This document shows, piece after piece, positions 8,153 to 38,103 of a stretch of DNA of 64,000 nt; position 1 is the first letter of the stretch, and each line of letters begins with the position of its first letter. Position numbers and translations under genes: made by a program. The notes under the pieces were generated by a model. The model ran no database searches, had not been told where the DNA came from, and saw only the letters and a list, made by a program, of their open reading frames with translations. Origin of the DNA: Christensenellaceae bacterium (GTDB lineage Bacteria; Bacillota; Clostridia; Christensenellales; SZUA-584); contig CAXXTQ010000001.1 in the NCBI GenBank assembly GCA_963665005.2, positions 1,496,382-1,560,381 on the forward strand, in the 5' to 3' direction.

Positions 8153-8229
8153 CAGCTATTGAAACTCGAATCCCACTGTCTCCTTAGAGATAGGGGGATT
8201 CGTTATTTAAATCAAGGAGGTGAATATTT

Positions 8230-9051: not shown

Positions 9052-9114
9052 TTTTTATATAAGAAATCAAAAAATAAGCAATTGCACCTATTGGTGCTTT
9101 TTTTGGAGGAAAAA

Positions 9115-9594: not shown

Positions 9595-9595
9595 A

Positions 9596-11311: not shown

Positions 11312-11312
11312 G
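11307..11312. repeat. GGCAGG at the left junction of the virB4 insertion (copy 1)
   Basis: The same hexamer abuts the right junction at 37480..37485. Confidence 0.6.
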
Positions 11313-11315
11313 ATA

Positions 11316-11342
11316 TGCCATACTTGTTCGTGAAGAGTTCAG
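11316..11342 (+). repeat. Left terminal inverted repeat of the insertion
   Basis: TGCCATACTTGTTCGTGAAGAGTTCAG matches the reverse complement of 37456..37483 (TGCCATATTGTCAAGTGATGAGTTCGAG). I counted 23 matches over 29 hand-aligned columns. Confidence 0.7.
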
Positions 11343-11607
11343 TTGCCCATAAAATTCACGAACAGGGACACGATCAACTGGACTTTTCTTTAATTAATCG
11401 GAAAGTTTGGGCTAGAGGTGTTATGGAAAATTCTATAATGCTAATAAGCTGAGCTAAGTAGCGAAAGCAATGGAGTATAGGGGAAGACATCCATGCACTC
11501 TCCATACATACACTACCTAAAAGGCGTTTTTGAATTATGGGAGCATTAAAAATTTTAATATAATAAGGAAAATTATTAAAGTTGATGTTGTGCTAATTAA
11601 ATAAAGG

Positions 11608-11672
11608 TTGTATGATACAAAAGTAGAACATGATCTAAGAATACAAAACGAATGTTTTAATATGTATATACA
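11608..11672. promoter_or_regulatory. Two palindromes upstream of the GntR-type regulator gene (candidate operators)
   Basis: TTGTAT-G-ATACAA at 11608..11620 and TGTATATACA at 11663..11672. Both fit the loose GntR-family GT-N-AC palindrome type. Confidence 0.35.
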
Positions 11673-11687
11673 AAAGGAGTTAATAGT

Positions 11688-25750: not shown

Positions 25751-26158
25751 GTCATAGGCTAGTACATAGGCGCTACCCGTCAAAGAAAAAAACGTAAGAT
25801 TGGCGGGCCTTTTTTCCATGCTTGAATAACGAACATAGCCCTTCGAGCTTACGGGTTTGGCGGGTATTTTCATGTGCATCCTTCGTGCCGAAAAACCAGT
25901 AAAGCCGTTACTTAATGGCGGCGCGGCGTGATGAAGCGGACTTCATCTTTTGTATCGCTATAATCGGTAAACAAAGCTGTTCTGAGCCTATAATTTACTA
26001 TACCCTTTCATGTAAATTTACGGATAATATAAGATATCTCCACCCATTTCCCCGGTTGACAATTGTCCAGCCGGGTTTTTTTGTACCCGTATTTTCACGT
26101 TGCCGTTCGCCTCCTGCTCTTTCTGAATTTACCAAAACATTCAGAAAGGACAGAAGCC

Positions 26159-26593
26159 ATGCAAATATATATTAAAATCAATGAGCGAACCGTGTCGGTG
26201 GATGTTTCCGTTGAAGTGTACGAATACATTGATCAAGCCAATCATAAAACCGAAAACTTAACCCATGAAAAGCGGCGGCATTGGGATGATCGAGAATATG
26301 ACGAAGCCACAATATTTCACGAATGCAATCGAAGCTACACCGAAACGCCGGAGCAATGGCTTATCCGCAAGGAAACCTTCCAGGAAATCGCGGAAGCGCT
26401 GGAGAGCTGTACAGAAGTACAGCGTCGGCGCTTTTTACTTTTTGCGTTGGAAGGGTTGAGCTATTCCGAGATTGCAAAGCGCTGCGACTGCTCCAAGGGC
26501 GCCGTGCAGGACAGCATAGAAGCGGTACGAAAAAAGTGCAAAGATTTTTTGAATAGAGACCCTACGAAACGCGATTTTCGGGCTATACAGTGA
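26159..26593 (+). CDS. Sigma-70 region-4-like HTH protein
   Basis: Start at ATG 26159 behind AAAGGA. The C-terminus reads RRRFLLFALEGLSYSEIAKRCDCSKGAVQDSIEAVRKK. Confidence 0.6.
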   Translation: MQIYIKINERTVSVDVSVEVYEYIDQANHKTENLTHEKRRHWDDREYDEATIFHECNRSYTETPEQWLIRKETFQEIAEALESCTEVQRRRFLLFALEGLSYSEIAKRCDCSKGAVQDSIEAVRKKCKDFLNRDPTKRDFRAIQ

Positions 26594-26679
26594 GGGGCTT
26601 TTTGCCCTATCACATTCGCGAGAGGGACAGGCAGTTTTCCAAGCTGCACTGTCCCTCTTGCTGTTTGGAGGTTTAGCCC

Positions 26680-27111
26680 ATGCAAATCATCAATCTGCGC
26701 AAACAGTACCCTGGTCTCTATACCGAGGACGTGTTTTTGGAAGTCTCCGACGACGTGGCCGAGGACATACTGTTGGCGACCCGTCAGGAGAACAACTACC
26801 GCCAACGCACATTCCGGCATAAGGCATACTACTCTCTTGACCGAGGCGACGGTATTGAAAACGATGCGCTTCATTTTACACCTTCGCCCGAAGAAATCTT
26901 TCTCCGGCAGGTATCGCTGGAACAGCTTCAGGAAGCCATCAACCACCTACCGCCTATCCAGATGCGGCGCGTTTACGCACATTACATTCTTGGAATGAAG
27001 AAGGTGGACATCGCCCGCGCCGAAGGCGTGTGCGGCAGTGGCGTATGTTCCACAATTCAGGCGGGCTTGAAGAATCTTCGGCGCTATTTTGAGAAGAAAA
27101 AATGGAAATAA
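26680..27111 (+). CDS. Sigma-70 region-4-like HTH protein (second copy type)
   Basis: LPPIQMRRVYAHYILGMKKVDIARAEGVCGSGVCSTIQAGLKNL, with a GGAGG RBS. Confidence 0.6.
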   Translation: MQIINLRKQYPGLYTEDVFLEVSDDVAEDILLATRQENNYRQRTFRHKAYYSLDRGDGIENDALHFTPSPEEIFLRQVSLEQLQEAINHLPPIQMRRVYAHYILGMKKVDIARAEGVCGSGVCSTIQAGLKNLRRYFEKKKWK

Positions 27112-27123
27112 AGGAGGATGACA

Positions 27124-27360
27124 ATGGAAAAGTACAAAGAACAAATTGAGTCGGTTCAGGAGAAAATCCGACAGCTTAAAAACCGCCAGAAGGTATTGCT
27201 GAGAAAGCAATCCGACGCCGAACGTAAGGCGCGGACGCGCCGCCTCATTGAGCGCGGAGCCATTTTGGAGAGCGTTTTCCCCGAAGTCGTATCCATGACG
27301 AACGAAAAGGTGAAGGCGTTTTTGGAGAAAATGCGGCGTCCTAATGAGAGCATGGAGTAG
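27124..27360 (+). CDS. Small coiled-coil protein (DUF3847-like)
   Basis: MEKYKEQIESVQEKIRQLKNRQKVLLRKQSDAERKARTRRLIERGAILES. This protein type commonly precedes MobA/MobL relaxases; the assignment is from memory. Confidence 0.5.
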   Translation: MEKYKEQIESVQEKIRQLKNRQKVLLRKQSDAERKARTRRLIERGAILESVFPEVVSMTNEKVKAFLEKMRRPNESME

Positions 27361-27374
27361 CTGCCGGTTCCGTA

Positions 27375-27399
27375 GGCGCACTTATGCACCCTTACGGGT
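27375..27399 (-). other. Putative oriT core (MobQ-type nick region preceded by a small hairpin)
   Basis: The minus strand reads ACCCgtaaGGGT-gca-TAAGTGCGCC. TAAGTGCGCC matches the RSF1010/R1162-type nick-region core (AAGTGCGCCCT, recalled from memory). It lies about 155 nt upstream of the relaxase gene. Confidence 0.45.
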
Positions 27400-27551
27400 T
27401 CGTGCGCTCTGCGAGGCTTGCGCTCTGACGAGCGCGATGGGGAGCTACACTCCCCAAACCTCTTGTGTCCTCACAGCCGGGCGCATCCTCTCTGCGGAGA
27501 ATACGTCCGGCATGAGGTCTATCGCCCGCCGCTACGAAGGAAGGTAAACGT

Positions 27552-28985
27552 ATGGCGATCTATCATTGCAGCATCAAAATCATAAAACGCAGCCAAGGCC
27601 GGAGCGCCGTGGCGGCGGCCGCCTACCGAAGCGGAAAAAAGCTGACCAACGAGTGGGACGGTATGACCCATGATTACACCCGCAAAGGTGGCGTTGTTCA
27701 TACGGAAATACTATTGCCCAGATATGCGCCCCCGGCGTTTCAAGACCGCTCCGCTCTTTGGAACAGAGTGGAGGTAATTGAGAAAAGCCGTAATGCCCAG
27801 CTCGCTCGCGAGATTGAAATCGCCCTGCCGGTGGAACTGAGCCGAAAAGAACAAATCAGTCTTGTCCGTGACTATATCCAAAATACTTTTGTGTCAGTGG
27901 GAATGTGCGCGGACGTGGCCATTCACGACAAAGGCGACGGCAATCCGCACGCACATATTCTGCTGACCATGCGCCCATTCAAGGAGGACGGCTCATGGGA
28001 CGCAAAGTGCATGAAGGAATATGATCTCGACAAACATGGGCAGCGTATCCGGCTGAAAAGCGGCGTGTTCAAAAGCCATCGAGTGGATACCACCGACTGG
28101 AACGAATCGACCAAAGCCGAAGCATGGCGAGCGGCATGGGCCGTATATGCCAATCGCATTTTTGAGGAAAAAGGGCTGTCGGAGCGTATCGACCACCGCA
28201 GCTATGAACGTCAGGGCGTAGAGCAGATGCCGACCGCCCACATGGGCGTGGCCGCGACGCAGATGGAACGCCGGGGCATTCATACCGATAAGGGCGGCGT
28301 CAATCGGGAGATTGCCGCTCAGAACAAATTGCTGAAAAAAATCAAGGCGCGTCTGACCCGGCTTTATAACTGGTCAAAGGAGCAAGCCGCACAGCCTGGC
28401 AAAAAGCGCAGTGTTTTGGAACAACTCCGGCAGGCACAAAACACGATACAAACCGCTCCTACCTATGGCAAGGCCAGGGCGCGCAATGAGGACGTGGCGC
28501 TGTTCAATCTTCTGCAAGAGAGAAAGATATCGTCTATACCGATACTACATGAAAAAATCTCCGATATGAACCGCGAGTATTACTCTCTGCGGGGAAAGAT
28601 TGCGAGCATCGAGCGCGAGCTTGGCAAACTCAATGAGCGACTTTCAATGTGGGAGCAGTACGAGGAAAACAAGAATGTATATCAGCAGCTTGCAACCTTG
28701 AAACCGGGTGTGCGGGATTCCTTCTCAGAAAAGCACCGTGTTGAACTGATCCTATTTGATTCCGCAGCCAACTACTTTGATGAGATGAAAGCCTTGGTCG
28801 AGGCCATTGAGCCGAAGAAATGGCGGGCGGAAATTGAACGATTGACAGCTCATAAGGATTCTCTTTTCCAGCAGGTAAAAGACATGCGCGGAGACATTGC
28901 GCTTTTGGAGAAATTTCGCAAGTCCGCCGAGGGTATTCCAAGCGGCAGAAAACCAATGACTAAGGAGTCTGAATATGAACGTTAA
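27552..28985 (+). CDS. MobA/MobL-family (MobQ-type) relaxase
   Basis: N-terminus MAIYHCSIKIIKRSQGRSAVAAAAYRSG and the His motif GNPHAHILLT, with a coiled-coil C-terminal half. Confidence 0.85.
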   Translation: MAIYHCSIKIIKRSQGRSAVAAAAYRSGKKLTNEWDGMTHDYTRKGGVVHTEILLPRYAPPAFQDRSALWNRVEVIEKSRNAQLAREIEIALPVELSRKEQISLVRDYIQNTFVSVGMCADVAIHDKGDGNPHAHILLTMRPFKEDGSWDAKCMKEYDLDKHGQRIRLKSGVFKSHRVDTTDWNESTKAEAWRAAWAVYANRIFEEKGLSERIDHRSYERQGVEQMPTAHMGVAATQMERRGIHTDKGGVNREIAAQNKLLKKIKARLTRLYNWSKEQAAQPGKKRSVLEQLRQAQNTIQTAPTYGKARARNEDVALFNLLQERKISSIPILHEKISDMNREYYSLRGKIASIERELGKLNERLSMWEQYEENKNVYQQLATLKPGVRDSFSEKHRVELILFDSAANYFDEMKALVEAIEPKKWRAEIERLTAHKDSLFQQVKDMRGDIALLEKFRKSAEGIPSGRKPMTKESEYER

Positions 28986-29171
28986 AATACACCTCAAAAT
29001 GATACCGAAAGAGAACATTCGCATATCCATCTATCCTATCCCTATCCATCCATCTCCCGTTCTTGAAAAGGAGCCTACAATGACGAAATACCCTAAGAAT
29101 GATACCGAAAAGCGACAGAAAATCCGTGATGCCGTTATATGCCTCCGTCACGGTTCAAAGGAGTGTTTGCT

Positions 29172-29357
29172 ATGCCGAGGATGAGCAAGAAGCGGAAGCT
29201 GGAATGGGCGTACTTTCTCAATCATCGGAACCGCATCAACTACAACGAACTGTGCCGGAAATGCGTTCATAGCTGCAAGCAGAGCTTTCGGGCTGAGGTG
29301 ATGGCATGCCCGCGCTATCAGTCCAAGCGCGCCAAGGAGGGCCGTCATGAATCATGA
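29172..29357 (+). CDS. Small cysteine-rich hypothetical protein
   Basis: MPRMSKKRKLEWAYFLNHRNRINYNELCRKCVHSCKQ...ACPRY, with ATG 29172 behind AAAGGAG. Confidence 0.45.
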   Translation: MPRMSKKRKLEWAYFLNHRNRINYNELCRKCVHSCKQSFRAEVMACPRYQSKRAKEGRHES

Positions 29358-29532
29358 TAACAGCCAAAAGATAAAAGGGTTAGTACCAGCCGGAAAAAGA
29401 AAAGGTAATACGCGGTTCGTCGTGGTGCGTGAATACCAAGGGAACCAAAGTATGCAATCCGCTTTCCGGCAGGTCGTCGAAAACCGTGTATGCGAGCAGT
29501 ATGAGCAATGGATGGAGCGAAAATCCGAATAG
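29347..29532 (+). CDS. Small hypothetical protein (TnpW-like size and position)
   Basis: 61 aa, overlapping the previous gene by 11 nt and lying directly upstream of the recombinase. The family call is tentative. Confidence 0.35.
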   Translation: MNHDNSQKIKGLVPAGKRKGNTRFVVVREYQGNQSMQSAFRQVVENRVCEQYEQWMERKSE

Positions 29533-29603
29533 CGGAATTGAAAAAACGACGGGGACATGGTATAATTCCGGTATCGTGTCCCTGTTCATTTAAGGAGAAC
29601 CAA

Positions 29604-31244
29604 ATGAACAGGAAAATCAAATCTATCCATCCCATCACCGCCCTGTATTGCCGTCTTTCCATTGAGGACGGGCGCGACAACGAAAGCATGAGTATATCCA
29701 ATCAGAAATCTATGCTCAAGGACTACGCAGAAAAGAACGGTATGCGCGAGTACGCCTACTACGTTGACGACGGGTACACGGGCCGGAATTTCAACCGTCC
29801 CGGTTTCCAGCGCATGATTTCGGATATAGAATCTGGTAAGATCAATTGTGTGATCACCAAAGACCTGTCCCGCCTTGGCCGCAACTACATTGAAGCAGGC
29901 AGCTACATTGAGATATTCTTTCCGCGTCATAACGTTCGGTACATTGCCGTTGCGGATAATGTGGACAGTTCGAATCGACAGGAAATGGACATTACGCCGT
30001 TCAAGAATATTTTGAACGATATGTATAGCCGGGATATCTCCAAGAAGGTTTTAGCTGGACGTATGGCGCAATCCCGTCAAGGAAAATTCGGCGGTGGTCC
30101 AACGCCTTACGGCCTGATGCGTGACCCGAAGAACAGAGGGCATTTGATCATTGATCCCAAAACTGCGCCAACCGTTAAGCTGGTCTATGACCTTGCGTCG
30201 AATGGATATGGCGCGATGCGGATTGCCAAGCATCTTCTCGAACATAGGATACCGATCACGCGGAGCAGAACCGCGAAGACCGATGTGAATTATTACTCAT
30301 GGAGCGGTAACGTCATCTGCAAGATGCTCAGGAATCCGGTTTACCGGGGCGCGCATGTGGTCTGTAAAACCCATCAGAAGGCGATCCGTTCCAACACGTT
30401 CAATTTCATTCCCCGCGACCAATGGGAGATCGTCGAGGACAGCCATGAGGCTATTGTCCCGAAAGAGCAATGGGAACAGGTACAAAAGCTCATAGACCGT
30501 CGCCCGCCCATCATGCAGGGAAACGACTGCCCATTCTACAATCTGTTTCACGGGTTGATATGCTGCGCGACCTGTGGGAGATCAATGCAGGTGCGATATG
30601 AGAAGGTTGGCCGCGCTGATATTAACCGTACAACGAAACAAAAGCGGGAGCCGATTGATAAGGCATATTATATCTGTCAGACGTATAATCGGCTGGGGAA
30701 GAACGCCTGCACCAGCCACAAGATCGAAGCCCGCGACCTGTATAATCTTGTGCTGGCTGATATCCGGGAACACGCGAAAAAAGCTCTAAGGGACTCCGAT
30801 AGCTTCTATGTTCAGCTCGCCAAAAAGCTGGAGTTGCGGCACAGCGTTGACGAAAGAACACTTAAGAAAGAATTGGACACCTTAGCCGAACGGAGTAAAG
30901 AAATTGACGCGCTATTCATGAGTCTGTATGAGGATAAGGCGAAGGGCATTCTGACTGAGCAGCGGTTCGTAATGATGACGGATAAGCTGGAGCGGGAACA
31001 AACGCAGGGCAAGGCGCGGATACAGGAGATCATGGACGAGCTTGGTTGTGCCGATGACCGGAGTCGGGATGTACGAAGCTTCATAGAGGAAGTTGGTCAA
31101 TATTCTGCCATTGAGGAACTGGACGAGATGATTGTGCATCGGCTGATTGACAAAATCGTTGTGAGCCATGCCCATATTGAAAACGGCGAAAAGGTTCAGG
31201 AGGTCAGGCTCGTATATAACTTTGTAGGTGAGCTGGAGAAATAA
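29604..31244 (+). CDS. Large serine recombinase
   Basis: Start at ATG 29604 behind AAGGAGA. Resolvase catalytic domain (ALYCRLSIEDG...NQKSML...YVDDGYTGRNFNRPGFQRM...VITKDLSRLGRN). It also has a recombinase domain, a Cys-rich zinc ribbon (CCATCGRSM...C..Y.....C.SH) and a coiled coil. Confidence 0.9.
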   Translation: MNRKIKSIHPITALYCRLSIEDGRDNESMSISNQKSMLKDYAEKNGMREYAYYVDDGYTGRNFNRPGFQRMISDIESGKINCVITKDLSRLGRNYIEAGSYIEIFFPRHNVRYIAVADNVDSSNRQEMDITPFKNILNDMYSRDISKKVLAGRMAQSRQGKFGGGPTPYGLMRDPKNRGHLIIDPKTAPTVKLVYDLASNGYGAMRIAKHLLEHRIPITRSRTAKTDVNYYSWSGNVICKMLRNPVYRGAHVVCKTHQKAIRSNTFNFIPRDQWEIVEDSHEAIVPKEQWEQVQKLIDRRPPIMQGNDCPFYNLFHGLICCATCGRSMQVRYEKVGRADINRTTKQKREPIDKAYYICQTYNRLGKNACTSHKIEARDLYNLVLADIREHAKKALRDSDSFYVQLAKKLELRHSVDERTLKKELDTLAERSKEIDALFMSLYEDKAKGILTEQRFVMMTDKLEREQTQGKARIQEIMDELGCADDRSRDVRSFIEEVGQYSAIEELDEMIVHRLIDKIVVSHAHIENGEKVQEVRLVYNFVGELEK

Positions 31245-31257
31245 TTGATAACCTCCG

Positions 31258-31303
31258 ACAGCCCTCCTCCTCAGTGTGAGTTGGAGAGCTGTTTTTCTTT
31301 TTT
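31258..31303 (+). terminator. Rho-independent terminator after the recombinase gene
   Basis: ACAGCCCTCC...GGAGAGCTGT (one mismatch) followed by TTTTTCTTTTTT. It marks the GC-rich to AT-rich switch. Confidence 0.65.
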
Positions 31304-31327
31304 ATGCTTGTTTAAAGAATGTATAAA

Positions 31328-31356
31328 GTTGAATAATGGGAAAATTTGTAGTAGAA
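31328..31356 (+). promoter_or_regulatory. Sigma-A-like promoter in front of the three-gene operon
   Basis: TTGAAT (31328..31333), a 17-nt spacer, then TAGAAT (31351..31356). Confidence 0.45.
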
Positions 31357-31674
31357 TGGATTTAAGATTCTAGAAAATGCTCGTATTTGAAGCGAGAAAT
31401 CAGCAGTTCAAAGCAGTCGAAGTAAAGCTGACAACCATAATAATCCACTTATGCCCTAAAGGGAAAGACAAACTTATGAAGATTGCAATTGCATTGGGTG
31501 GTTTAAGTAGGTAAAGGGGCGATTGTTACGGGACATGAGCGTATTGGTTTTTTACCCCATACAAAACAATGGAGGGCGATTATTAATCAACTCGTCCAGT
31601 TTAGTGACGGCGAAATCCCCGTTACACAGATTACTAACGGTACGCTTAATGCTGTTAAAAATACATATGAAAAA

Positions 31675-32307
31675 ATGCCATATGATGAATCTATTATAAA
31701 AGCCCTCTCCTTCATTACTACACTTTCCTTTTCAGCAAAACTTGAGAATCAAGTTGATTTCTTGAATGAACATGGCTATTCTGTAGATTCTCAGTTATCA
31801 TTAATCTCATTAATGGTCAGCGCACAAAATTACATTACAACCGATTATGGCTCTTTAGAAGTAAATAAGTTAGCTAAGGATGCCGCAATGCAAGCGGTTA
31901 TTGATTACCAACAACGGCATGAGTCTAATCAACTTTCTATGTTTTCAGAGCAATCACAAAATGTCTGGGAAAGTGTTGGGACTGGAGCGGCTTTTTGTGA
32001 AATGGCGCGAACTTTTTTTGCATCATTTACAGAAAGACAATTAAAGTATTACATAGAACGGGCAGCCGCTAGCAATATAGATAACTACGAAACCTTAAAA
32101 ACGTTCAATCAAGAGTTATCTTTGCAGTCAAAAGCTATTGCCGACCATACCTTTGAAATCTCTAAATTAACTCAATCCTTTGCCGCTGCTTGGTTTAATA
32201 AAAATGCTATTGATTCTATACCAAACGAAAAGCAGGTAGAAAATTTCCTTAGAATGTCCTTTGGTAAATTACGCGAGGAATTCCGAAGGGAGGCTGATGG
32301 GCAATGA
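31675..32307 (+). CDS. Hypothetical protein A of the candidate defence operon (start uncertain)
   Basis: At least 210 aa with no motif I recognise. The frame is open upstream to 31507. The stop overlaps the start of gene B (ATGA). Confidence 0.6.
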   Translation: MPYDESIIKALSFITTLSFSAKLENQVDFLNEHGYSVDSQLSLISLMVSAQNYITTDYGSLEVNKLAKDAAMQAVIDYQQRHESNQLSMFSEQSQNVWESVGTGAAFCEMARTFFASFTERQLKYYIERAAASNIDNYETLKTFNQELSLQSKAIADHTFEISKLTQSFAAAWFNKNAIDSIPNEKQVENFLRMSFGKLREEFRREADGQ

Positions 32308-34187
32308 TCCAACAGACTCCTACTATGATTCGTGTTAATTGTGGGGAAATTTGTACAACCACTGAATGTACAGCATCTGAAATCAATCTACTTCACACCG
32401 ATATGGGTGACTTAACTTCGAATATTACCATTGGTTACGAAAGATTTGTTAAAAATCCTGATGAATTACCGGGTAGAATTCTTGATTTGTTACAGATTGC
32501 TGCTTATATATTTTGTGGCGATCGAATGGCTAATCGTGGTAAACGGGATAGCCTAAACAACGATTCATGGGCACGTACTTTTGAATTCCATATTCCTGTG
32601 CTAGATATAGAATTTTGGAACAGTGAAAAAACCAAAAAAGTACTAACTGATGTCTTAACGTTTTTAACAGGGGACCGTAGTTTTAGCTTTATCTTTTCAA
32701 AATCGGACAAGAACCCCGCAGAAATAAAGAACAAACAATTGTCATTGTTTTCAGAAGAATATAGCGATCCGATCGAGGCCCAAAAAACAGATATTATGCT
32801 TTTTTCTGGAGGACTTGATTCTTTAGCGGGAGCCATTCAAAGACTCAATGAACACAGAAATCGGTTCTTATGTGTTGTTAGTCATAAGTCCAATAAATCT
32901 GTGATGCATACACAAGATATGCTTATTTCCACCTTGAATATAAAATATGATAACAGAGCAAAGAAATACGGATTTGAATGCTGCAATCACAATGGATTGA
33001 AAAGTAAAGAAGAGACGCAACGCACAAGAATATTTCTTTTTTCAGCAATTGCTTTTTCATTATGCCATTGTTATGGTAAGCATGAGTTTTATGTTTACGA
33101 AAATGGTATTACGAGTTTAAATTTATCAAAGCAAGCTGATGTAATTAATGCTCGTGCCAGTAGAACAACGCATCCAAAAACATTAGGGATGCTCCGTATA
33201 TTTTATAGATTATTAGATTCTTCATTTGATATAAAAGCGCCTTATTATAATCAGACAAAAGCAGAAATTATGGAAGTGTTTAGAAAATATAATGAAGAAC
33301 ACTTGATTTCAAGTTCGGTTTCATGCAGTTCCTCCAGAACAAAGCCTGGACAAGTCCCCCATTGTGGATGCTGTTCACAATGTATTGACCGACGGTTTTC
33401 TATATTCGCGTCAGGCTTAGACGAATATGATGCCCCATATGCCAACGATTTTATTAATGCATTTCCAGATGATGACAACAATGAAACAAAGCAGCGGATT
33501 TATATTACTATGCGGTTAGCAAATCTTGAAGATATTTCGACTAAGGATGACTTTGTTAAAAAATATCCCTCTGATGTGATGGATATGATTCAATACTGGC
33601 AAGGTTCAAATAACGCTGACGATAAATTGGATGAAATATATTCATTGGTTTGTCGATATGGAAAATCTGTTATTAACGCTGCAACCAGAATGCGGAATAA
33701 ATATGATGACTTAACTCGGCCAATAAATAAAAATTCTTTGCTTGGGATAATATCGGAACGCAAATATATGAAAACGCCATGTTTCAATCGTGTTGCTGAA
33801 ATTGATATGATCCTTAAAAAAGCTATTCCAGACATTTTTCAGAGAGAAAAGCCTAAGAACGAAAATGATTTCAATGACAAGTTACATGGTATTCTTAGTA
33901 CTCGTGGAGAATTTACAAGAGAATATCCTGTGCTCCTATTTGGATTGTCTTCTTACAAAGCAGATCAAGCACAAGGAGACTTAATCATTGAGAGCAAATA
34001 TATTAGAGGGAAAACATCGCCAAGTGTCGCCAGTGAGGGTATTTCTGCAGATATAATAAAAATACCAGAGGGTTATGGTGTGATGTTTGTAGTATATGAT
34101 CCTGAAGGAAGTATAACTGATTCCTTGAAATTTTCGTCAACATTTGAGACAAAACGCAAGGATTGTTATGTACGAGTATATAGATGA
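32304..34187 (+). CDS. QueC-like PP-loop ATPase with N-terminal (~165 aa) and C-terminal (~240 aa, PD-(D/E)xK-like) extensions
   Basis: SGGLDS at 32805..32822. QRTRIFLFSAIAF, VYENGITS and APYYNQTKAEI parallel E. coli QueC blocks (GRNILFLTLAAIYA, ETDFSGYPDC, PLMWIDKAET). Cys cluster SCSS...HCGCCSQC at about 33324..33383. The C-terminus has ...YKADQAQGDLIIESKY (33960..33998). Confidence 0.8.
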   Translation: MIQQTPTMIRVNCGEICTTTECTASEINLLHTDMGDLTSNITIGYERFVKNPDELPGRILDLLQIAAYIFCGDRMANRGKRDSLNNDSWARTFEFHIPVLDIEFWNSEKTKKVLTDVLTFLTGDRSFSFIFSKSDKNPAEIKNKQLSLFSEEYSDPIEAQKTDIMLFSGGLDSLAGAIQRLNEHRNRFLCVVSHKSNKSVMHTQDMLISTLNIKYDNRAKKYGFECCNHNGLKSKEETQRTRIFLFSAIAFSLCHCYGKHEFYVYENGITSLNLSKQADVINARASRTTHPKTLGMLRIFYRLLDSSFDIKAPYYNQTKAEIMEVFRKYNEEHLISSSVSCSSSRTKPGQVPHCGCCSQCIDRRFSIFASGLDEYDAPYANDFINAFPDDDNNETKQRIYITMRLANLEDISTKDDFVKKYPSDVMDMIQYWQGSNNADDKLDEIYSLVCRYGKSVINAATRMRNKYDDLTRPINKNSLLGIISERKYMKTPCFNRVAEIDMILKKAIPDIFQREKPKNENDFNDKLHGILSTRGEFTREYPVLLFGLSSYKADQAQGDLIIESKYIRGKTSPSVASEGISADIIKIPEGYGVMFVVYDPEGSITDSLKFSSTFETKRKDCYVRVYR

Positions 34188-34280
34188 TGGGACTAAAAAA
34201 TAAGTAATGTATACAAATAAACTTGGATTTACTGCATTTTTATTAGACCATTAAACAAAAGTATTGTGGGAGTTGGTAAT

Positions 34281-37256
34281 ATGAAAATTATCAAATATAA
34301 AGTCGGTAATAATAAAGTAGCACAAATACAATCAGCTCCTAACGCAGGAATGTTGGAAGTTGATGCTGTGTTATCCTCATGGAAAAATGCAGTATCATAT
34401 AACACTCAGGACGAAGGTTCTCCTGGATTTCGGCCAGCACAGCTCGGGGCACTTTTTTCGATAAAAGCTCACTGGATTGTTTCAGACGAACCAGCTACTG
34501 TTGTTATGCCAACTGGTACAGGTAAAACAGAAACAATGATTGCTACTATTGTATCCGAAATGCTTGGGCGTACCTTAATTATTGTTCCAAATAGCTTACT
34601 AAGAGAGCAAACCGCTGAAAAATTTCTGACATTTGGTATTTTGCAAAAGATTAGTGTAATTAACGATAGCGCAATCAAACCAACTGTTACAACATTGCGT
34701 ACAACCCCCAAGGAACTTACTGATCTGCGAGAGATTTTTGATAAGTCTAATATAGTAGTTACCACAATGTCATTGTTGCAAAGATTTTCTGACGATTATT
34801 TGATGGCAATTACCGAAATCTGCAATACGTTAATTGTGGACGAAGCTCACCATATTGCGGCGAATAAATGGGCAACAGTAAAGTATAAATTAAGAAAATT
34901 GAAATGCCTGCAATTTACTGCAACACCCTTTAGAAACGATGGGAAAAAAGTCGACGGAAAAATAATTTACAATTTTCCTTTAGCAATGGCTCAGAAACAA
35001 GGATATTTTCAGCAAATCAATTTTCTTCCTATTTGGGAGTTTGATGAAGAAAAAGGCGATCTTGCTATTGCTTCAGCTGCCATCAACCAACTTGATAGTG
35101 ATTTGAAAGCTGGGTACAATCACATAATTCTTGTACGTGTTAAGAGCAAGATTTCTGCTGATCATTTGTACAGAAGCATTTATCGACAACATTTTGAAAA
35201 ATATAATCCAGTATTGGTGCATAGTGATATTTCTGCAACTGACAGGGCTAAGGCAATAGCGGCTCTTAACAATGGGAGTTCGCGAATAGTTGTTTGCGTG
35301 GATATGTTTGGAGAAGGAATTGATATTCCCAGTTTGAAAATAGCGGCTGTACATGACAAATATAAATCGCTTCCAATAACATTGCAATTCATTGGACGTT
35401 TTGCAAGGTCGAGCGAGGGGCTTGGTACAGCAACAGTGATTACCAACATAGCTAATGATGAATTAAACGAATCACTACGAGAGCTTTATACTCAAGATTC
35501 AGACTGGAATGTTTTGCTTCATGTTATGGCTAGTCGCGAGATTGATAAGGAACTATCATTACAAGAACTTGCCGAAGGATTTGATGTATCCTCTTTAAGC
35601 GGAATGACTATTCAGCAATTACGTCCAAAAGTAAGTATGATAGCTTACAGCACAAATGATAAAAACTGGAATCTAAGTGCTCTAAATAATTTCTTCGATC
35701 CTGATAAGTGTTATTTCACTGTCAACCATGACAATAAAGTAATAGTTATAATTGAAAAAATTGATTCGAATATTGAATGGTCTACCTTCAAAGGAATTAA
35801 CGATATAAATTGGAATTTGCATTTGGTCTATTGGAATCCCGAAATAAAAATGTTCTTCATAAACAGTACAAACAAAAGTATTTCTGACACTATAGCCGAT
35901 GCATTGTTTACTCAATCAATTAGAATAAGTGGTGAAAATGTATTCCGCTGTTTGCACGGCATTAAGCGTTTAATGCTCGGTACAGTTGGCCTAAAATCAG
36001 CTTTTGATGGTCCTATTCGTTATCGAATGTTTGCTGGAATTGATATTGCTAATGGTATTACTGAATCACAAAAAGAATCTTCCTTTAAATCAAATCTATT
36101 TGGGGTTGGATATGATGGGAGTGGCAAAGTAAGTATTGGATGTTCATATAAAGGTCGCATTTGGTCTAGGTGGGTCGAGAGTATTGATTTTTGGATGAAC
36201 TGGTGTGATAATATAGCTGCCCGACTACAAAATCAAGAAATTGACACTTCAAGAATATTTGAGGGAGCATTAGTACCTGAAATAATATATGAACGCCCCT
36301 CGTCTGTTCCCTACGAAATTGAATGGCCCATCGATATGGATTTGATAAATGATCGTAGTATCCTCATAACTCATGGACCTAACGATTATCCTGTTTATGC
36401 AATGGATATTAAACTTTCTGATTATAATGAAACTGGGCCGATACGATTTTCTGTCGGAAATAATAAAATTCGTGAAGAGTATGAATTACACATTTCTAAC
36501 CGAAAATATGAATTTAAGACAATTAAGCCGACGGGATTGATTATAAAGAGAAGTAAACGTGAATATAAGGTAGCAGAGTTTTTTAACGAATTTCCACCGC
36601 GCATTAAATTTGTTGACCAATCAATGCTAGAAGGAAATCTTCTGGTTAAAATAACCGCTATTCCTCCATCGTTTAATAGAGAACGCATACAGATTTGGAA
36701 TTGGAAAGGAATAGATATTCATAAAGAATCACAGGGCGCTGAGCGCAATAAACAAAGTATTCAATATCGTGTGATCCAGAACCTTGTGTCTACTGATCGT
36801 TTCAGCGTGATTTTTGACGATGATGATGCTGGCGAAATAGCAGATGTAGTTAGTATTGCCGATGACAAAAATAAAATTTCTATTCAGTTCTATCACTGCA
36901 AATATGCTCATGGAGATAATCCTGGTGCTAGAGTTGCTGATTTATACGAAGTATGCGGACAAGCAGAGAAATCAATAAAGTGGTGCCAAGAACCAACCGC
37001 AATCATTGATCGTCTTATAAAACGTGAATCTTCCCGTATACATTTGGGAGGAACAAGATTTGAAGTTGGAAGTCTGCGCAAACTTCGAGAAATTAAGAAT
37101 AAAATGCGTGTATTCCCAACACATATTCAAATTTTCATTGTACAACCTGGGATTGATTCCACAGCATTAACAGATGATATGATTCGTATACTTAGTGGAA
37201 CAGCATCATACTTAATGGATACCTATAGTGTAAAGCTACAAGTCATTTGTAGCTAA
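34281..37256 (+). CDS. SF2 DEAH-box helicase fused to a ~580-aa C-terminal region ending in a restriction-endonuclease-like module
   Basis: Start taken at ATG 34281 behind GGGAG (the track uses GTG 34266). Motif I is MPTGTGKTE (34509..), II is IVDEAHHI (34836..), III is TATP (34917..), V is MFGEGIDIP and VI is QFIGRFARS (35385..). The C-terminus reads DDDDAGEIADVVSI-x11-IQFYHCKY (36816..36902). Confidence 0.85.
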   Translation: MKIIKYKVGNNKVAQIQSAPNAGMLEVDAVLSSWKNAVSYNTQDEGSPGFRPAQLGALFSIKAHWIVSDEPATVVMPTGTGKTETMIATIVSEMLGRTLIIVPNSLLREQTAEKFLTFGILQKISVINDSAIKPTVTTLRTTPKELTDLREIFDKSNIVVTTMSLLQRFSDDYLMAITEICNTLIVDEAHHIAANKWATVKYKLRKLKCLQFTATPFRNDGKKVDGKIIYNFPLAMAQKQGYFQQINFLPIWEFDEEKGDLAIASAAINQLDSDLKAGYNHIILVRVKSKISADHLYRSIYRQHFEKYNPVLVHSDISATDRAKAIAALNNGSSRIVVCVDMFGEGIDIPSLKIAAVHDKYKSLPITLQFIGRFARSSEGLGTATVITNIANDELNESLRELYTQDSDWNVLLHVMASREIDKELSLQELAEGFDVSSLSGMTIQQLRPKVSMIAYSTNDKNWNLSALNNFFDPDKCYFTVNHDNKVIVIIEKIDSNIEWSTFKGINDINWNLHLVYWNPEIKMFFINSTNKSISDTIADALFTQSIRISGENVFRCLHGIKRLMLGTVGLKSAFDGPIRYRMFAGIDIANGITESQKESSFKSNLFGVGYDGSGKVSIGCSYKGRIWSRWVESIDFWMNWCDNIAARLQNQEIDTSRIFEGALVPEIIYERPSSVPYEIEWPIDMDLINDRSILITHGPNDYPVYAMDIKLSDYNETGPIRFSVGNNKIREEYELHISNRKYEFKTIKPTGLIIKRSKREYKVAEFFNEFPPRIKFVDQSMLEGNLLVKITAIPPSFNRERIQIWNWKGIDIHKESQGAERNKQSIQYRVIQNLVSTDRFSVIFDDDDAGEIADVVSIADDKNKISIQFYHCKYAHGDNPGARVADLYEVCGQAEKSIKWCQEPTAIIDRLIKRESSRIHLGGTRFEVGSLRKLREIKNKMRVFPTHIQIFIVQPGIDSTALTDDMIRILSGTASYLMDTYSVKLQVICS

Positions 37257-37419
37257 TTGTTTGTTTCAAGATAAATGACAGTGACATTTCCGATTACCTC
37301 ATCTATCGTTGTTCTACTCAAACCGTTTATTTTCCCATAGAATACACTTTGCTTATTTCTAAAGTGAGTTCCAAGTATGAGTATAATTGTGCTGTGACCT
37401 AAAGATGGCTATATGATAT

Positions 37420-37455
37420 AAAACTGTGTTCCTGTAGGGCACAGTTTTTGTTTTT
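37420..37455 (+). terminator. Rho-independent terminator closing the three-gene operon
   Basis: AAAACTGTG-ttcctgtaggg-CACAGTTTT followed by TGTTTTTC. It abuts the right inverted repeat. Confidence 0.65.
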
Positions 37456-37483
37456 CTCGAACTCATCACTTGACAATATGGCA
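37456..37483 (-). repeat. Right terminal inverted repeat of the insertion
   Basis: The reverse complement TGCCATATTGTCAAGTGATGAGTTCGAG pairs with 11316..11342. Confidence 0.7.
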
Positions 37484-37485
37484 GG
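37480..37485. repeat. GGCAGG at the right junction of the virB4 insertion (copy 2)
   Basis: Identical to 11307..11312. Confidence 0.6.
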
Positions 37486-38103
37486 GAGCTATTAAAGCAG
37501 GACGAACCCGAAGCAAGAGAAGTAGCTCTAGCCATTGAGTTATTTACCGATGGCAGCTTAAACACCTTTGCACAGCAGACCAATGTGGATGTAAATAGCC
37601 AATACCTTGTCTATGACATAAAGGATTTAGGCAAGCAGCTACGCACAATTGGTATGCTTGTGGTGCTTGATAACATATTCAATCGTATTACTGAAAACAG
37701 GGCGAAAGGACGTATCACTTTTATCTATATTGACGAGATCTATCTGCTTTTTCAAAATGAGTATTCCTCTAACTTTTTGTTCGAATTATGGAAGCGTGTC
37801 AGAAAGTACGGAGCTTGTGCGACAGGGATTACCCAAAATGTTTCCGACCTTTTAGTATCACATACGGCTAGGACAATGCTTGCTAACAGCGAGTTTCTTT
37901 TGATGATGAATCAAGCTCCGACAGACAGGATTGAGCTTGCTAATCTAATCAACATCAGTGAAGCACAGCTATCCCACATAACGGATAATGAAAAAGCAGG
38001 TATAGGGCTTTTGAAATATGCAGGGAGCATCGTGCCTTTTGAAGATGATTTTCCACGACATACAAGGCTTTATAACTTGATGAATACAAAAATTGGTAAA
38101 TAA
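37486..38103 (+). pseudogene. VirB4-like conjugation ATPase, 3' fragment (Walker B onward)
   Basis: In frame from 37486: ELLKQDEPEAREVALAIELFTDGSLNTFAQQTNVDVNSQYLVYDIKDLGKQL...RITFIYIDEIYLLF (Walker B)...GITQNVSD. There is no start codon or N-terminal domain of its own. Confidence 0.85.

What the first reader, a model, noticed from the sequence alone, without database searches (positions are those of the whole stretch)
31328..37455. Three-gene QueC-like / helicase-nuclease operon: candidate undescribed anti-phage system
A compact, same-strand, visibly AT-rich operon sits between the recombinase terminator and the right end of the 26-kb mobile insertion, a typical position for defence cargo.

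- **Layout:** gene A (31675..32307), gene B (32304..34187, ATGA-coupled to A) and gene C (34281..37256). A TTGAAT-17-TAGAAT promoter lies in front and a hairpin terminator behind.
- **Gene B:** an unmistakable QueC-type PP-loop core.
- **Gene C:** an SF2 DEAH helicase with a nuclease-like tail.
- **Gene A:** no motif I recognise.

QueC-like proteins are known defence components only as QatC (Qat) and Cap9 (type IV CBASS). Cap9 has been reported to attach a 7-deazaguanine to a protein N-terminus. None of the partners that define those systems is present here: no QatA ATPase, no QatD TatD nuclease, no CD-NTase and no Cap10 TGT-like protein. A QueC-like protein paired with a helicase-nuclease and a small protein is not a combination I can name. 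My hypothesis is that B modifies A or C (or a nucleic acid) with a deazapurine-type adduct, and that C and/or the C-terminal domain of B is the effector.
Basis: partly seen in the sequence, partly recalled or inferred. Interest (0 to 1): 0.92.

Follow-up and report, generated by a model that had tools for sequence, protein, structure and literature searches.

The report
QatBC-like pair with fused nuclease
Two of the three genes form an apparently undescribed variant of the Qat anti-phage system in which the QueC-like enzyme carries its own nuclease domain, whereas the helicase gene next to them is an unrelated, independently mobile neighbour.

Summary
The three ORFs are real, but they are not one system.

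**Gene B** is a QatC-family protein (PADLOC QatC 1e-51; PDB QatC 3e-24). It has an extra C-terminal restriction-endonuclease-like domain with invariant D554/E563/K565.

**Gene A** was called too short. It runs from 31528 (259 aa). Its homologues all begin MGH.R.G.LP.T..W, which resembles the essential MGTS…P.W tail of QatB, the proposed substrate of QatC.

**A–B pairing.** An A-like gene overlaps the start of a B-like gene in 73 of 85 loci from many phyla. The exceptions I examined are contig edges, IS-disrupted copies or ORF-calling problems.

**Variable tails.** The tail of B varies between loci: REase-like, TIR, trypsin-like protease, wHTH and unknown classes.

**Surroundings.** The pairs lie on mobile elements and beside other defence genes: Pycsar, Gabija, a UG5 DRT reverse transcriptase and R-M systems.

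**Gene C** (SF2 helicase plus a nuclease-like end) is absent from every B-anchored locus examined. In the closest relative, homology stops exactly at B's stop codon. C homologues occur alone elsewhere.

**Best reading.** A–B is a self-contained, QatBC-like two-gene module with a fused effector, a new variant of a known kind. C is a separate defence candidate.

**Oddity.** In this copy A starts at ACG, not ATG.

The parts
31329..31357 (+). Promoter-like site TTGAAT-17-TAGAAT in front of gene A
   Evidence: 9 of 12 matches. Such matches are not enriched over shuffles in this region. The site is conserved in the 98%-identical leader of L092.
31513..31519 (+). Shine-Dalgarno-like AAAGGGG, 8 nt upstream of the ACG at 31528
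   Evidence: Sequence read. The spacing fits initiation at 31528 and does not fit the ATT at 31522.
31528..32307 (+). Gene A, corrected model (259 codons plus stop). It is a QatB-like partner protein with a non-canonical ACG at the start position.
   Evidence: The AF2 model is all-alpha, pLDDT 85, with residues 1-9 disordered.
31528..31572 (+). Codons for the conserved N-terminal tail (T/M)GHERIGFLPHTKQW
   Evidence: G2, H3 and W15 are invariant, and M1, L9 and P10 at least 90% conserved, in 66 diverse homologues. Within the close Firmicutes family R5, G7, F8, L9 and P10 are also invariant. Against L092 the region shows 5 synonymous and 1 non-synonymous change.
32304..34187 (+). Gene B: QatC-family PP-loop enzyme fused to a restriction-endonuclease-like domain. 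It overlaps A by ATGA.
32304..33773 (+). B residues 1-490: QatC-like N-terminal extension, Rossmann/PP-loop core, Zn ribbon and C-terminal helices. This is the part shared by all B relatives.
   Evidence: PDB QatC 9vlk/9zee align to residues 59-388. Relatives align up to about residues 460-490 and then diverge.
32805..32822 (+). SGGLDS pyrophosphate-binding loop (B 168-173)
   Evidence: Invariant in the family. The equivalent serines are essential in P. aeruginosa QatC (PMC13279940).
33162..33176 (+). RTTHP segment (B 287-291), the QatC-specific replacement of the QueC/Cap9 Tyr/Asp base-recognition residues
   Evidence: PMC13279940; PMC13329287
33363..33395 (+). CGCCSQCIDRR zinc-ribbon motif (B 354-364). 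Together with C341 it forms the Cys4 site.
   Evidence: QatC motif C..CGxCxxRR per PMC13329287.
33774..34184 (+). B residues ~491-627: REase_DpnII-MboI-like PD-(D/E)xK domain, the proposed effector. ESK lies at 33990-33998.
   Evidence: PF18742 scores E 1e-5 here. It is hit in 13 of 61 scanned tails, best E 7.6e-10. E540, D554, E563 and K565 are invariant.
34281..37256 (+). Gene C: a 991-aa SF2 helicase with a beta-rich middle region and a nuclease-like C-terminal domain. It is an independent neighbour, not part of the A-B module.
34428..35480 (+). C helicase core (ResIII plus Helicase_C); Walker A TGTGKT at 34512-34529, DEAH at 34839-34850
   Evidence: ResIII 79.5 bits, Helicase_C 47 bits. 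The nearest PDB sequences are XPB/Rad25, UvrB and chain 7clg_A, deposited as 'Putative helicase' (953 aa). PADLOC also gives weak hits to Type IV methyl-directed restriction enzyme models.
36813..36974 (+). C nuclease-like motif block FDDDD..GEIAD..FYHCK..GQAEKS (C 845-898)
   Evidence: Invariant in 34 homologues. The AF2 model shows an alpha-beta-beta-beta-alpha core there. The domain matches PADLOC candidate PDC-S71 at 3e-8. No PDB fold or sequence hit.
37420..37448 (+). Terminator-like hairpin (12-bp stem) plus T-run after gene C
29508..31244 (+). Context: large serine recombinase of the inserted element. The MobA/MobL relaxase is at 27552-28985.
   Evidence: The same relaxase-recombinase-A-B order is seen in L092.

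Best explanation
Genes A (31528..32307) and B (32304..34187) form a self-contained two-gene defence module related to the QatB-QatC core of the Qat system. Gene C is a separate gene that happens to sit downstream on this element.

**Proposed mechanism (inferred by analogy)**
- A is translated and loses its initiator Met. [quoted passage not shown]
- B uses ATP to adenylate a carboxylate substrate and transfers it to A's N-terminal amine. The substrate is 7-carboxy-7-deazaguanine in Cap9 and unknown for QatC.
- The state of the A-B complex (modified or unmodified, bound or released) controls the PD-(D/E)xK restriction-endonuclease-like domain fused to B's C-terminus. That domain cuts DNA when a phage is sensed.
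- In sister lineages the same A/QatC-like chassis carries a TIR or a trypsin-like protease domain instead. The tail is therefore the interchangeable output.

**Shown here**
- B belongs to the QatC family.
- A and B are coupled almost universally.
- A has an invariant Met-Gly N-terminus.
- B's tail is modular.
- The pair lies in mobile-element and defence-island contexts.
- C is independent.

**Inferred**
- The modification chemistry.
- That the tail is an active nuclease.
- The anti-phage function.

**This copy**
A begins with ACG instead of ATG. This probably gives low-level initiation, because the coding constraint on A is retained.
For: **B is QatC-like**
- PADLOC QatC scores 1.1e-51. NCBIfam QatC scores 4.5e-59.
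- PDB QatC 9vlk/9zee score 3e-24, or 1.5e-32 with a family profile. The match covers the QatC-specific N-terminal extension.
- SGGxDS, RxRxxxF, ExG, RTTHP, P(x)4TK and CGxCxxRR are invariant. These are the motifs listed in PMC13329287.

**A-B are a pair**
- An A-like ORF lies directly upstream of the B-like ORF in 73 of 85 loci from many phyla. The exceptions examined are contig edges, IS-disrupted copies or ORF-calling problems.
- The usual overlaps are -4, -8 and -11 nt.
- No third gene is conserved. The recurrent neighbours are integrases, recombinases, a primase and type I R-M genes.

**A resembles QatB**
- The size is similar (259 aa) and the fold is all-alpha with a disordered tip.
- The N-terminus is invariant MGH plus LP…W. 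QatB has MGTS…P.W, with an essential Gly2 (PMC13279940; PMC13376578; QatB sequences).
- Profile-profile comparison gives E 4.7e-4 over 91 co-linear columns.

**QatBC alone suffices** for defence against some phages (PMC13279940).

**Modular tail**
- REase-type tails occur in 29 loci, TIR in 4, Trypsin_2 in 2 and wHTH in 2. Several further classes are unknown.

**Defence context**
- The pair lies between Pycsar and Gabija and next to a UG5 DRT.
- It also lies next to a large RVT_1-domain protein and a Schlafen-like ATPase, and next to a type II R-M system on a small integrase/Mob element.

**C is independent**
- C is absent from all 85 loci and from the closest relatives.
- Window-L092 homology ends at 34187.
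- C homologues are solitary in other contexts.
Against: - A gives no hit to curated QatB models or to PDB QatB sequences.
- The profile-profile probability is only 32%. Homology of A to QatB is therefore not established.
- The fold comparison was uninformative. No QatB chain appeared among the matches, and the fold library stops at 2026-04-08, so the QatB structures are probably missing from it.
- B scores 200 bits against NCBIfam QatC, below the curated cutoff of 280.
- B's REase tail scores just below Pfam's gathering threshold in this copy (24-25 bits against 27).
- Some sister tails are DNA-binding (wHTH, sigma-70 region 4) rather than obviously toxic.
- Even for canonical QatC the chemistry has not been reconstituted.
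- In this window A lacks a canonical start codon. The nearest relative has an IS element inside B, so this lineage might be decaying.
- A, B and C share strand and composition here, and no terminator-like site was found between B and C. Co-transcription and local functional interplay cannot be excluded.
- There are no experimental data on phage resistance.
Confidence: 0.66

Rival explanations
1. One reading: A, B and C are one three-gene system. The helicase-nuclease C is the effector, or the target, of the QueC-like enzyme.
For: - The three genes lie on the same strand. The B-C gap is only 93 nt, with no terminator-like site between them. They share a low GC content and have a single terminator-like hairpin after C.
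Against: - There is no C homologue, for either the helicase part or the C-terminal part, in 85 B-anchored loci.
- There is none next to the 77-82% identical B relatives.
- In L092, which carries the same relaxase-recombinase-A-B element, similarity stops at B's stop codon and C is absent.
- In all three contexts examined (a defence island, an ICE and a chromosome), members of C's ~990-aa family stand alone without A or B.
- In L005 the slot after B holds an unrelated single-gene defence system, a UG5 DRT.
Confidence: 0.06
2. The A-B pair in this particular window is a decaying, non-functional remnant. The ATG-to-ACG change removed A's start, so only an N-terminally truncated A from the ATG at 31675 could be made, if anything. 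That protein would lack the essential Gly tail.
For: - ACG occupies the start position only here and in L092. Elsewhere the codon is ATG in 63 loci, TTG in 5 and GTG in 2.
- L092's B is interrupted by an IS element.
- Gene callers annotate a 210-aa A (P0127).
Against: - Both copies share the ACG. Since they diverged, the 49 upstream codons have changed 5 times synonymously and once non-synonymously. The rest of A shows 4 synonymous and 1 non-synonymous change. My own binomial estimate gives about p=0.005 for the upstream codons if they were evolving neutrally.
- A good SD sequence sits 8 nt before the ACG.
- B is full length with all invariant residues in the window.
Confidence: 0.17
3. A-B is not an anti-phage system. 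It is instead an addiction/stabilisation or inter-element competition module of integrative elements, for example a toxin-like nuclease kept in check by A.
For: - The pair is consistently located on integrase-, recombinase- or Mob-bearing elements.
- The effector-like tail is fused to a regulator-like enzyme. No phenotype has been measured.
Against: - B is homologous to QatC, whose system is experimentally anti-phage.
- The pair is repeatedly adjacent to bona fide defence systems: Pycsar, Gabija, a UG5 DRT and R-M.
- The two roles are not mutually exclusive.
Confidence: 0.1
4. B is an ordinary queuosine-pathway QueC with accidental neighbours.
For: Weak Pfam QueC hit (25 bits) over the Zn-ribbon end only. 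Some database records name homologues '7-cyano-7-deazaguanine synthase'.
Against: - TIGR00364 QueC scores 19.6 bits against a cutoff of 150.
- No YxQxHxxE, VPxRN or YPDC motif was seen in B. Only the Zn-ribbon end (residues 300-364) matches QueC models, and the QatC-specific motifs are present instead.
- B is 627 aa, with QatC-type extensions and an REase-like tail.
- Canonical QatC does not complement a queC deletion (PMC13329287).
Confidence: 0.01

Closest known systems
QatABCD anti-phage system, specifically its QatB-QatC core (Gao et al. 2020; structures 9vlk/9vll and 9zee/9zef; PMC13279940, PMC13376578, PMC13639016)
   Same: - B shares the QatC architecture: the N-terminal extension, the PP-loop Rossmann core with SGGxDS, the RTTHP segment and the Cys4 zinc site.
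- A small all-alpha partner gene lies immediately upstream and is translationally coupled.
- The partner has an invariant Met-Gly N-terminus on a flexible tip, followed by a conserved Pro and Trp.
- The module sits on mobile elements.
- QatBC alone can protect, so a two-gene version is plausible.
   Different: - There is no QatA (KAP NTPase) and no QatD (TatD nuclease).
- B is ~170 aa longer, with a fused REase-like domain. In sister lineages the fused domain is TIR, a protease, wHTH or of unknown type.
- The partner starts MGH…, not MGTS…. It has only a ~9-residue disordered tip, against 30-90 residues in many QatB proteins. It is not recognised by QatB HMMs.
- B falls below NCBIfam's QatC equivalog cutoff.
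Type IV CBASS Cap9-CdnD deazaguanylation (Wassarman et al. 2025, bioRxiv 10.1101/2025.04.06.647259)
   Same: A QueC-family ATP-dependent enzyme acts on the Gly2 N-terminus of a partner protein to license an immune output. This is the only QueC-like defence reaction whose chemistry is known.
   Different: - There is no CD-NTase, no Cap10 (TGT-like) and no cyclic-nucleotide effector.
- Cap9 is a minimal ~185-aa QueC that keeps the QueC base-binding Tyr/Asp. B has the remodelled QatC-type site, so the group it adds may differ.
Defence proteins with a conserved sensor/enzyme chassis and swappable C- or N-terminal effector domains (for example CBASS effectors, Thoeris ThsA/ThsB, Avs/NLR-like proteins); comparison from general knowledge
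   Same: The same core (A plus the QatC-like domain) occurs with REase, TIR or trypsin-like protease tails. This is the usual signature of an interchangeable output domain.
   Different: Here the chassis is a protein-modifying PP-loop enzyme together with its substrate protein. I found no description of that combination with fused effectors in the searched literature.
For gene C: single-polypeptide helicase-nuclease defence or restriction proteins (Type IV methyl-directed restriction enzyme models in PADLOC; Hna; PADLOC candidate PDC-S71)
   Same: - C has an SF2 motor with a Walker A motif and DEAH, plus a C-terminal alpha-beta-beta-beta-alpha domain with acidic residues and a conserved Lys.
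- It is solitary cargo in defence islands and ICEs.
- Its helicase region resembles Type IV methyl-directed restriction enzyme models (PADLOC 5e-9; PDB 7clg, 2e-7). Its C-terminal domain matches PDC-S71 (3e-8).
   Different: - Outside the helicase region no Pfam domain was detected.
- Hna is an 845-aa DinG/XPD-like protein (PMC13381803), which is a different SF2 lineage.
- The ~400-aa beta-rich middle region has no detectable relatives.
- The motif is HxK rather than (D/E)xK.
- No family name could be assigned.

Membership tests
QatABCD (Qat) system | QatC: QueC-like PP-loop protein with QatC-specific N- and C-terminal extensions and remodelled active-site motifs | tested here: met
   PADLOC QatC 1.1e-51 covers profile positions 59-412 of 453. 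PDB QatC scores 3e-24, or 1.5e-32 with a profile. The motifs are invariant in the family, matching the list in PMC13329287.
QatABCD (Qat) system | Score above NCBIfam's curated QatC equivalog cutoff (NF041925, 280 bits) | tested here: not met
   200.3 bits. RefSeq-style annotation therefore calls the homologues hypothetical or QueC.
QatABCD (Qat) system | QatB: partner protein encoded directly upstream of qatC, with an essential N-terminal Gly2 (MGTS) on a flexible tail | tested here: inconclusive
   Position, coupling, size, all-alpha fold class and the Met-Gly…P…W tail all match. There is no hit to the QatB models in PADLOC or NCBIfam and none to PDB QatB. hhalign gives E 4.7e-4, probability 32%.
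QatABCD (Qat) system | QatA: KAP-family P-loop NTPase in the operon | tested here: not met
   The gene upstream of A is a serine recombinase and the gene downstream of B is the helicase C. Clustering of neighbours found no recurrent family other than mobile-element and R-M genes in 85 loci, although no QatA model was scanned. Canonical loci, by contrast, show the P-loop NTPase.
QatABCD (Qat) system | QatD: TatD-family nuclease in the operon | tested here: not met
   No TatD gene in the window region. Neighbour clustering found no recurrent family other than mobile-element and R-M genes, although no TatD model was scanned.
QatABCD (Qat) system | Confers resistance to phage | not testable with these tools
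   Needs plaque assays. Only guilt by association with Pycsar, Gabija, a UG5 DRT and R-M neighbours is available.
Type IV CBASS (Cap9/Cap10/CD-NTase) | CD-NTase substrate, TGT-like Cap10, and a minimal Cap9 that keeps the QueC base-binding motifs | tested here: not met
   There are no CD-NTase or TGT hits among A, B and C. B carries the QatC-type motifs.
Canonical QueC (7-cyano-7-deazaguanine synthase) | TIGR00364/PF06508 full-length match with YxQxHxxE, VPxRN and YPDC | tested here: not met
   TIGR00364 scores 19.6 bits against a cutoff of 150. The Pfam QueC hit covers only residues 305-364.
PD-(D/E)xK restriction endonuclease, REase_DpnII-MboI (PF18742), for B's tail | Profile match above threshold and conserved catalytic D…(D/E)xK | tested here: inconclusive
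   The window copy scores 24-25 bits against a cutoff of 27. The profile is hit in 13 of 61 scanned tails, best E 7.6e-10. E540, D554, E563 and K565 are invariant in 28 sequences. No structure model of the tail was made and no activity is known.
SF2 helicase (ResIII / Helicase_C), for gene C | Both RecA-like lobes with Walker A and DEAH | tested here: met
   ResIII 79.5 bits, DEAD 56 bits, Helicase_C 47 bits, all above cutoff. The motifs are located.
   None of 85 loci has C. The closest relatives lack C. C homologues lack A and B.
Hna helicase-nuclease, for gene C | DinG/XPD-like SF2 helicase plus C-terminal PD-(D/E)xK domain, ~845 aa | not tested
   No Hna model or sequence was available here. 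The description in PMC13381803 indicates a different SF2 lineage from C's XPB/UvrB-like core.

The most novel reading that the evidence does not exclude
The MGH-type partner protein, together with QatC-like enzymes that carry swappable C-terminal domains, defines a large undescribed class of two-gene immune modules. The swappable domains are REase, TIR, trypsin-like protease and others.

The partner family comprises 733 clusters at 50% identity and is found across many phyla. In this class, QueC-type modification of a partner protein's N-terminal glycine would act as the switch for a covalently attached effector.

This would make an open question directly testable, namely what the QatB-QatC reaction actually controls. 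In these fusions the output domain is physically identified.
Probability: 0.45. Interest if true: 0.78.

Novelty: new variant of a known kind. Interest (0 to 1): 0.6.

Why it matters
Three 2026 structural papers show that QatB-QatC is the minimal functional core of Qat. None could say what reaction QatC performs. Nor could they say how a modified QatB stops a phage.

The family found here keeps the QatC-like enzyme and a QatB-like partner. It dispenses with QatA and QatD and welds a recognisable output domain (nuclease, TIR or protease) onto the enzyme.

If it works as proposed, it would offer a simpler experimental system. A nuclease or NADase read-out could be used to find the trigger and the chemistry of QueC-type protein modification in immunity.

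It also shows that annotation pipelines currently miss these genes. They are labelled hypothetical or '7-cyano-7-deazaguanine synthase', and the partner gene has no family model.

For this scan, the practical lesson is that physical adjacency on a mobile element produced a false three-gene 'operon'.

Tried and rejected
- **Fold search of A against the PDB.** No match below E 0.1. No QatB chain appeared, and the library ends 2026-04-08, so the QatB structures are probably not in it. The result is uninformative, not negative.
- **Sequence and profile searches of A.** The targets were PDB sequences and the PADLOC, NCBIfam and Pfam models. Nothing was found beyond sub-threshold noise (DUF5411, 21.7 bits).
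- **hhalign of the A profile against single QatB sequences.** Not significant. Against an 8-sequence QatB alignment it was only suggestive.
- **Fold search of C's 571-aa C-terminal model.** No hit below E 0.03, probably because the query is multi-domain. A profile of C's last 190 aa against the PDB also gave nothing. Pfam on sub-domains found nothing either.
- **B family profile against the PDB, for the tail.** Only QatC was hit, and no solved REase relative.
- **Rfam scan of the leader and the whole locus at E<=1.** No riboswitch or other RNA family; a preQ1 riboswitch had been considered.
- **Search for shared right-end sequence between the window and L092 beyond B.** None found.
- **Looking for a conserved third gene by clustering all neighbours.** Only mobile-element and R-M genes recur.
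- **Literature searches for QatC/QueC fusions, TIR, helicase partners or PF18742.** No description was found. The held library is not exhaustive.
- **Considered and rejected.** B as a housekeeping QueC, C as Hna, and the 987-aa gene after B in L005 as a C homologue. The last is a UG5 DRT reverse transcriptase.

Full report
**1. What is in the sequence**

- B is at 32304..34187 (627 aa).
- C runs from ATG 34281, behind a GGGAG ribosome-binding site, to 37256 (991 aa).
- The stop of A and the start of B overlap as ATGA (CAATGATC).

The region has 35-37% GC. The relaxase/recombinase genes just upstream have 48-54%. A terminator-like hairpin follows C at 37420-37448. A TTGAAT-17-TAGAAT site precedes A at 31329-31357, but such matches are not enriched over shuffled sequence here.

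The wider context is also as described. A VirB4/TraG-like ATPase gene of a conjugative element is split into 9596-11449 and 37585-38100 by about 26 kb. The inserted DNA carries a MobA/MobL relaxase, a large serine recombinase and then A-B-C.

**2. Gene A was called too short**

Homologues of A in other loci are 259-260 aa and begin MGH(E/V)RIGFLP.TKQW.
- Nearly all full-length family members are about 259 aa (listed range 247-275).
- A profile search of 1.84 billion representative proteins finds 733 clusters. Most full-length matches are about 250-265 aa and align from residue 1; many shorter fragments also match.

The corrected gene is therefore 31528..32307.

The codon at the homologous start position is ACG. 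An AAAGGGG Shine-Dalgarno sequence sits 8 nt upstream of it. In 70 other loci that codon is ATG (63), TTG (5) or GTG (2).

An independent metagenomic contig, L092, is 98% identical over this stretch and has the same ACG.
- Since the two copies diverged, the 49 upstream codons show 5 synonymous and 1 non-synonymous change.
- The rest of A shows 4 synonymous and 1 non-synonymous change.

The extension is therefore still under coding constraint. It is most simply read as translated from a weak, non-canonical start.

**3. Gene B is a QatC-family protein with an added nuclease-like domain**

B matches several QatC references.

| Reference | Score |
|---|---|
| PADLOC QatC model | 1.1e-51 |
| NCBIfam QatC | 4.5e-59 (200 bits, below the 280-bit equivalog cutoff) |
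| Solved QatC chains 9vlk/9zee | 3e-24 |
| Same chains, with a family profile | 1.5e-32 |

The PDB alignment begins in the QatC-specific N-terminal extension.

The QatC signature motifs are listed by Libby et al. (PMC13329287). They are invariant in 28 B-family sequences:
- D(x)4R…WxR
- SGGxDS
- RxRxxxF
- ExG
- HP within RTTHP
- P(x)4TK
- CGxCxxRR

The canonical QueC model scores only 19.6 bits against a cutoff of 150.

Beyond about residue 490, B has an extra domain that canonical QatC lacks.
- It hits REase_DpnII-MboI (PF18742) just under threshold here.
- The same profile is hit in 13 of 61 scanned tails, best E 7.6e-10.
- E540, D554, E563 and K565 are invariant.

**4. A and B are a conserved pair; C is not part of it**

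A scan of one genome per species with a B-family alignment found 456 relatives. I took the best 80 loci and added five from metagenomes.
- An A-like ORF with the MGH…LP…W start ends at or inside the start of the B-like ORF in 73 of 85 loci.
- The usual overlaps are 4, 8 or 11 nt.
- The exceptions I examined are contig ends, IS-disrupted copies or ORF-calling problems. Several loci with no BLAST hit still showed the MGH protein on inspection.

No locus contains a homologue of C, for either the helicase part or the C-terminal part. The closest B relatives (77-82% identity) also lack C.
- One lies between a Pycsar system and a Gabija system.
- One lies next to a large protein with a weak reverse-transcriptase (RVT_1) domain and a Schlafen-like ATPase.
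- One lies next to unknown genes.

L092 carries the same relaxase-recombinase-A-B element at about 90% identity. In L092, similarity to the window ends exactly at B's stop codon (34187). An IS element interrupts B and C is absent.

Conversely, C belongs to a large, uniformly ~990-aa family. Its members stand alone in three contexts:
- in a defence island beside Gabija-like and restriction genes;
- as lone cargo among type IV secretion genes of an ICE;
- beside a UvrD helicase and a methylase.

In L005 the slot after B holds an unrelated 987-aa protein that is a UG5 DRT defence reverse transcriptase (1e-222). Clustering all neighbours of the 85 pairs yields only integrases, serine recombinases, a primase and type I R-M genes as recurrent families.

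**5. The tail of B is interchangeable**

B relatives align with the window protein up to about residue 460-490 and then diverge. Among the 85 loci the tails fall into these classes:

| Tail class | Loci |
|---|---|
| REase-like | 29 |
| Unknown class I | 12 |
| Unknown class II | 9 |
| TIR (Poribacteria; TIR_2 1.6e-13) | 4 |
| Unknown class III | 4 |
| Trypsin-like protease (8.8e-15) | 2 |
| Winged-helix DNA-binding domain | 2 |

Several smaller unknown classes and singletons remain.

The two protease-tailed loci are Bacillota. Their A and QatC-like parts are still about 50% identical to the window's. Swapping of a terminal domain on a conserved chassis is the usual signature of an effector or output domain.

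**6. Relation of A to QatB**

In canonical qatABCD the gene directly upstream of qatC is qatB. QatB is an all-alpha protein whose flexible N-terminus carries a conserved MGTS motif plus a Pro and a Trp.
- After Met removal, Gly2 sits in the QatC active site.
- G2D abolishes defence.
- QatB-QatC alone protects against some phages (PMC13279940; PMC13376578).

I extracted eight canonical QatB sequences from annotated plasmid loci. One example is Planococcus, MGTSKGYLPPTGYLW.

A matches QatB in several ways:
- position and translational coupling;
- size;
- fold class: the AF2 model has pLDDT 85, twelve helices and a disordered tip at residues 1-9;
- the logic of the N-terminus: MGH is invariant, L9 and P10 are at least 90% conserved and W15 is invariant.

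Homology is not proven:
- no A-like protein hits the QatB models or PDB QatB;
- profile-profile comparison gives E 4.7e-4 but only 32% probability, over 91 co-linear columns;
- no QatB chain appeared in the fold search, and the library predates the QatB papers.

I therefore call A QatB-like, not QatB.

**7. Most likely mechanism**

By analogy with Cap9-CdnD and QatC-QatB, B's PP-loop domain would adenylate a carboxylate substrate and join it to A's N-terminal glycine. The fused nuclease-like domain would be the output, controlled by the state of the A-B complex.

Every step of this chemistry is inferred. Even for canonical QatC the reaction has not been reconstituted. What is shown here is the family membership of B, the obligate pairing, the invariant Met-Gly tail, the modular tails, and the mobile-element and defence-island context.

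**8. Gene C**

C has an XPB/UvrB-type SF2 core. PADLOC also gives weak hits to PbeA and to Type IV methyl-directed restriction enzyme models. About 570 further residues follow the core. They model confidently (pLDDT 82) as beta-rich domains plus a terminal alpha-beta-beta-beta-alpha domain.
- That terminal domain carries the invariant block FDDD…GEIAD…HCK…GQAEKS.
- It matches the PADLOC single-gene candidate PDC-S71 at 3e-8.
- It has no PDB relative.

C is a plausible stand-alone helicase-nuclease defence or restriction gene, but it has no assigned family.

**9. Novelty**

The searchable literature contains four 2026 papers on QatB/QatC and the QueC superfamily. None mentions QatC proteins fused to REase, TIR or protease domains, an MGH-type partner, or a two-gene form without QatA and QatD.

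Libby et al. note that only about a third of their QatC cluster is linked to qatA or qatD. That would be consistent with such variants sitting unrecognised in that cluster.

I rate the finding a new variant of a known kind. It is useful nonetheless, because the fused output domain offers a handle on the unresolved Qat mechanism.

Noticed in passing
window 31522-31533: Gene A has ACG where 70 homologous loci have ATG, TTG or GTG. The same ACG is present in an independent, diverged contig (L092). The codons downstream of it evolve mostly synonymously, so this is a probable non-canonical, low-efficiency start codon rather than a dead gene.
   Followed up: partly
window 9596-11449 and 37585-38100: A VirB4/TraG-like conjugation ATPase gene is split by the ~26-kb insertion: 618 + 172 aa, with P-loop_TraG profile positions 26-137 and 213-342. 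The host ICE is therefore probably disabled for transfer. The exact attachment-site repeats were not mapped.
   Followed up: partly
L092:9433-10911 (equivalent to window 33982-33985): In the nearest relative, a DDE_Tnp_1 IS element is inserted into B's REase-like tail. The two flanks overlap by 4 bp on the window coordinates, which looks like a target-site duplication. L001 likewise has an IS21 element truncating A. Disruption by IS elements may point to a cost of carrying the module.
   Followed up: no
L009:6965-9013 and L011:6968-9031: Two Bacillota loci have A and QatC-like parts that are ~50% identical to the window's, yet carry a trypsin-like protease domain in place of the REase-like tail. 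This is domain replacement at short evolutionary distance.
   Followed up: partly
L026, L029, L031, L035 (Candidatus Poribacteria): These QatC-like proteins carry a C-terminal TIR domain (TIR_2 1.6e-13) and are paired with an MGH-type partner.
   Followed up: partly
window 35541-36740 (C residues 421-820): A ~400-aa beta-rich region lies between C's helicase and its nuclease-like end. It models confidently but has no Pfam, PADLOC or PDB relatives, and could be a DNA- or modification-reading module.
   Followed up: partly
L090:7001-9976 (Kineothrix alysoides): A 76%-identical C homologue sits alone, on the opposite strand, between the TrbL/Maff2 and TraG-type coupling-protein genes of an ICE. 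That ICE is of the same general kind as the one in the window, so C-type genes seem to be recurrent ICE cargo.
   Followed up: no
L005:9975-12938; L095:500-3175 and 8206-11998: A-B pairs are flanked by recognised defence systems: a UG5 RT-nitrilase DRT (1e-222) in L005, and Pycsar (PycTM plus cyclases) and Gabija (GajA/GajB-like) in L095. These loci could be mined for further unknown neighbours, for example the 377-aa ORF at L095:3757-4890.
   Followed up: no
window 26000-31300 versus 31300-37500: GC drops sharply from ~50% (sigma-like HTH, relaxase and recombinase genes) to ~36% (A-B-C). The inserted element is therefore a mosaic, and the cargo was probably acquired separately from its mobility genes.
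   Followed up: no
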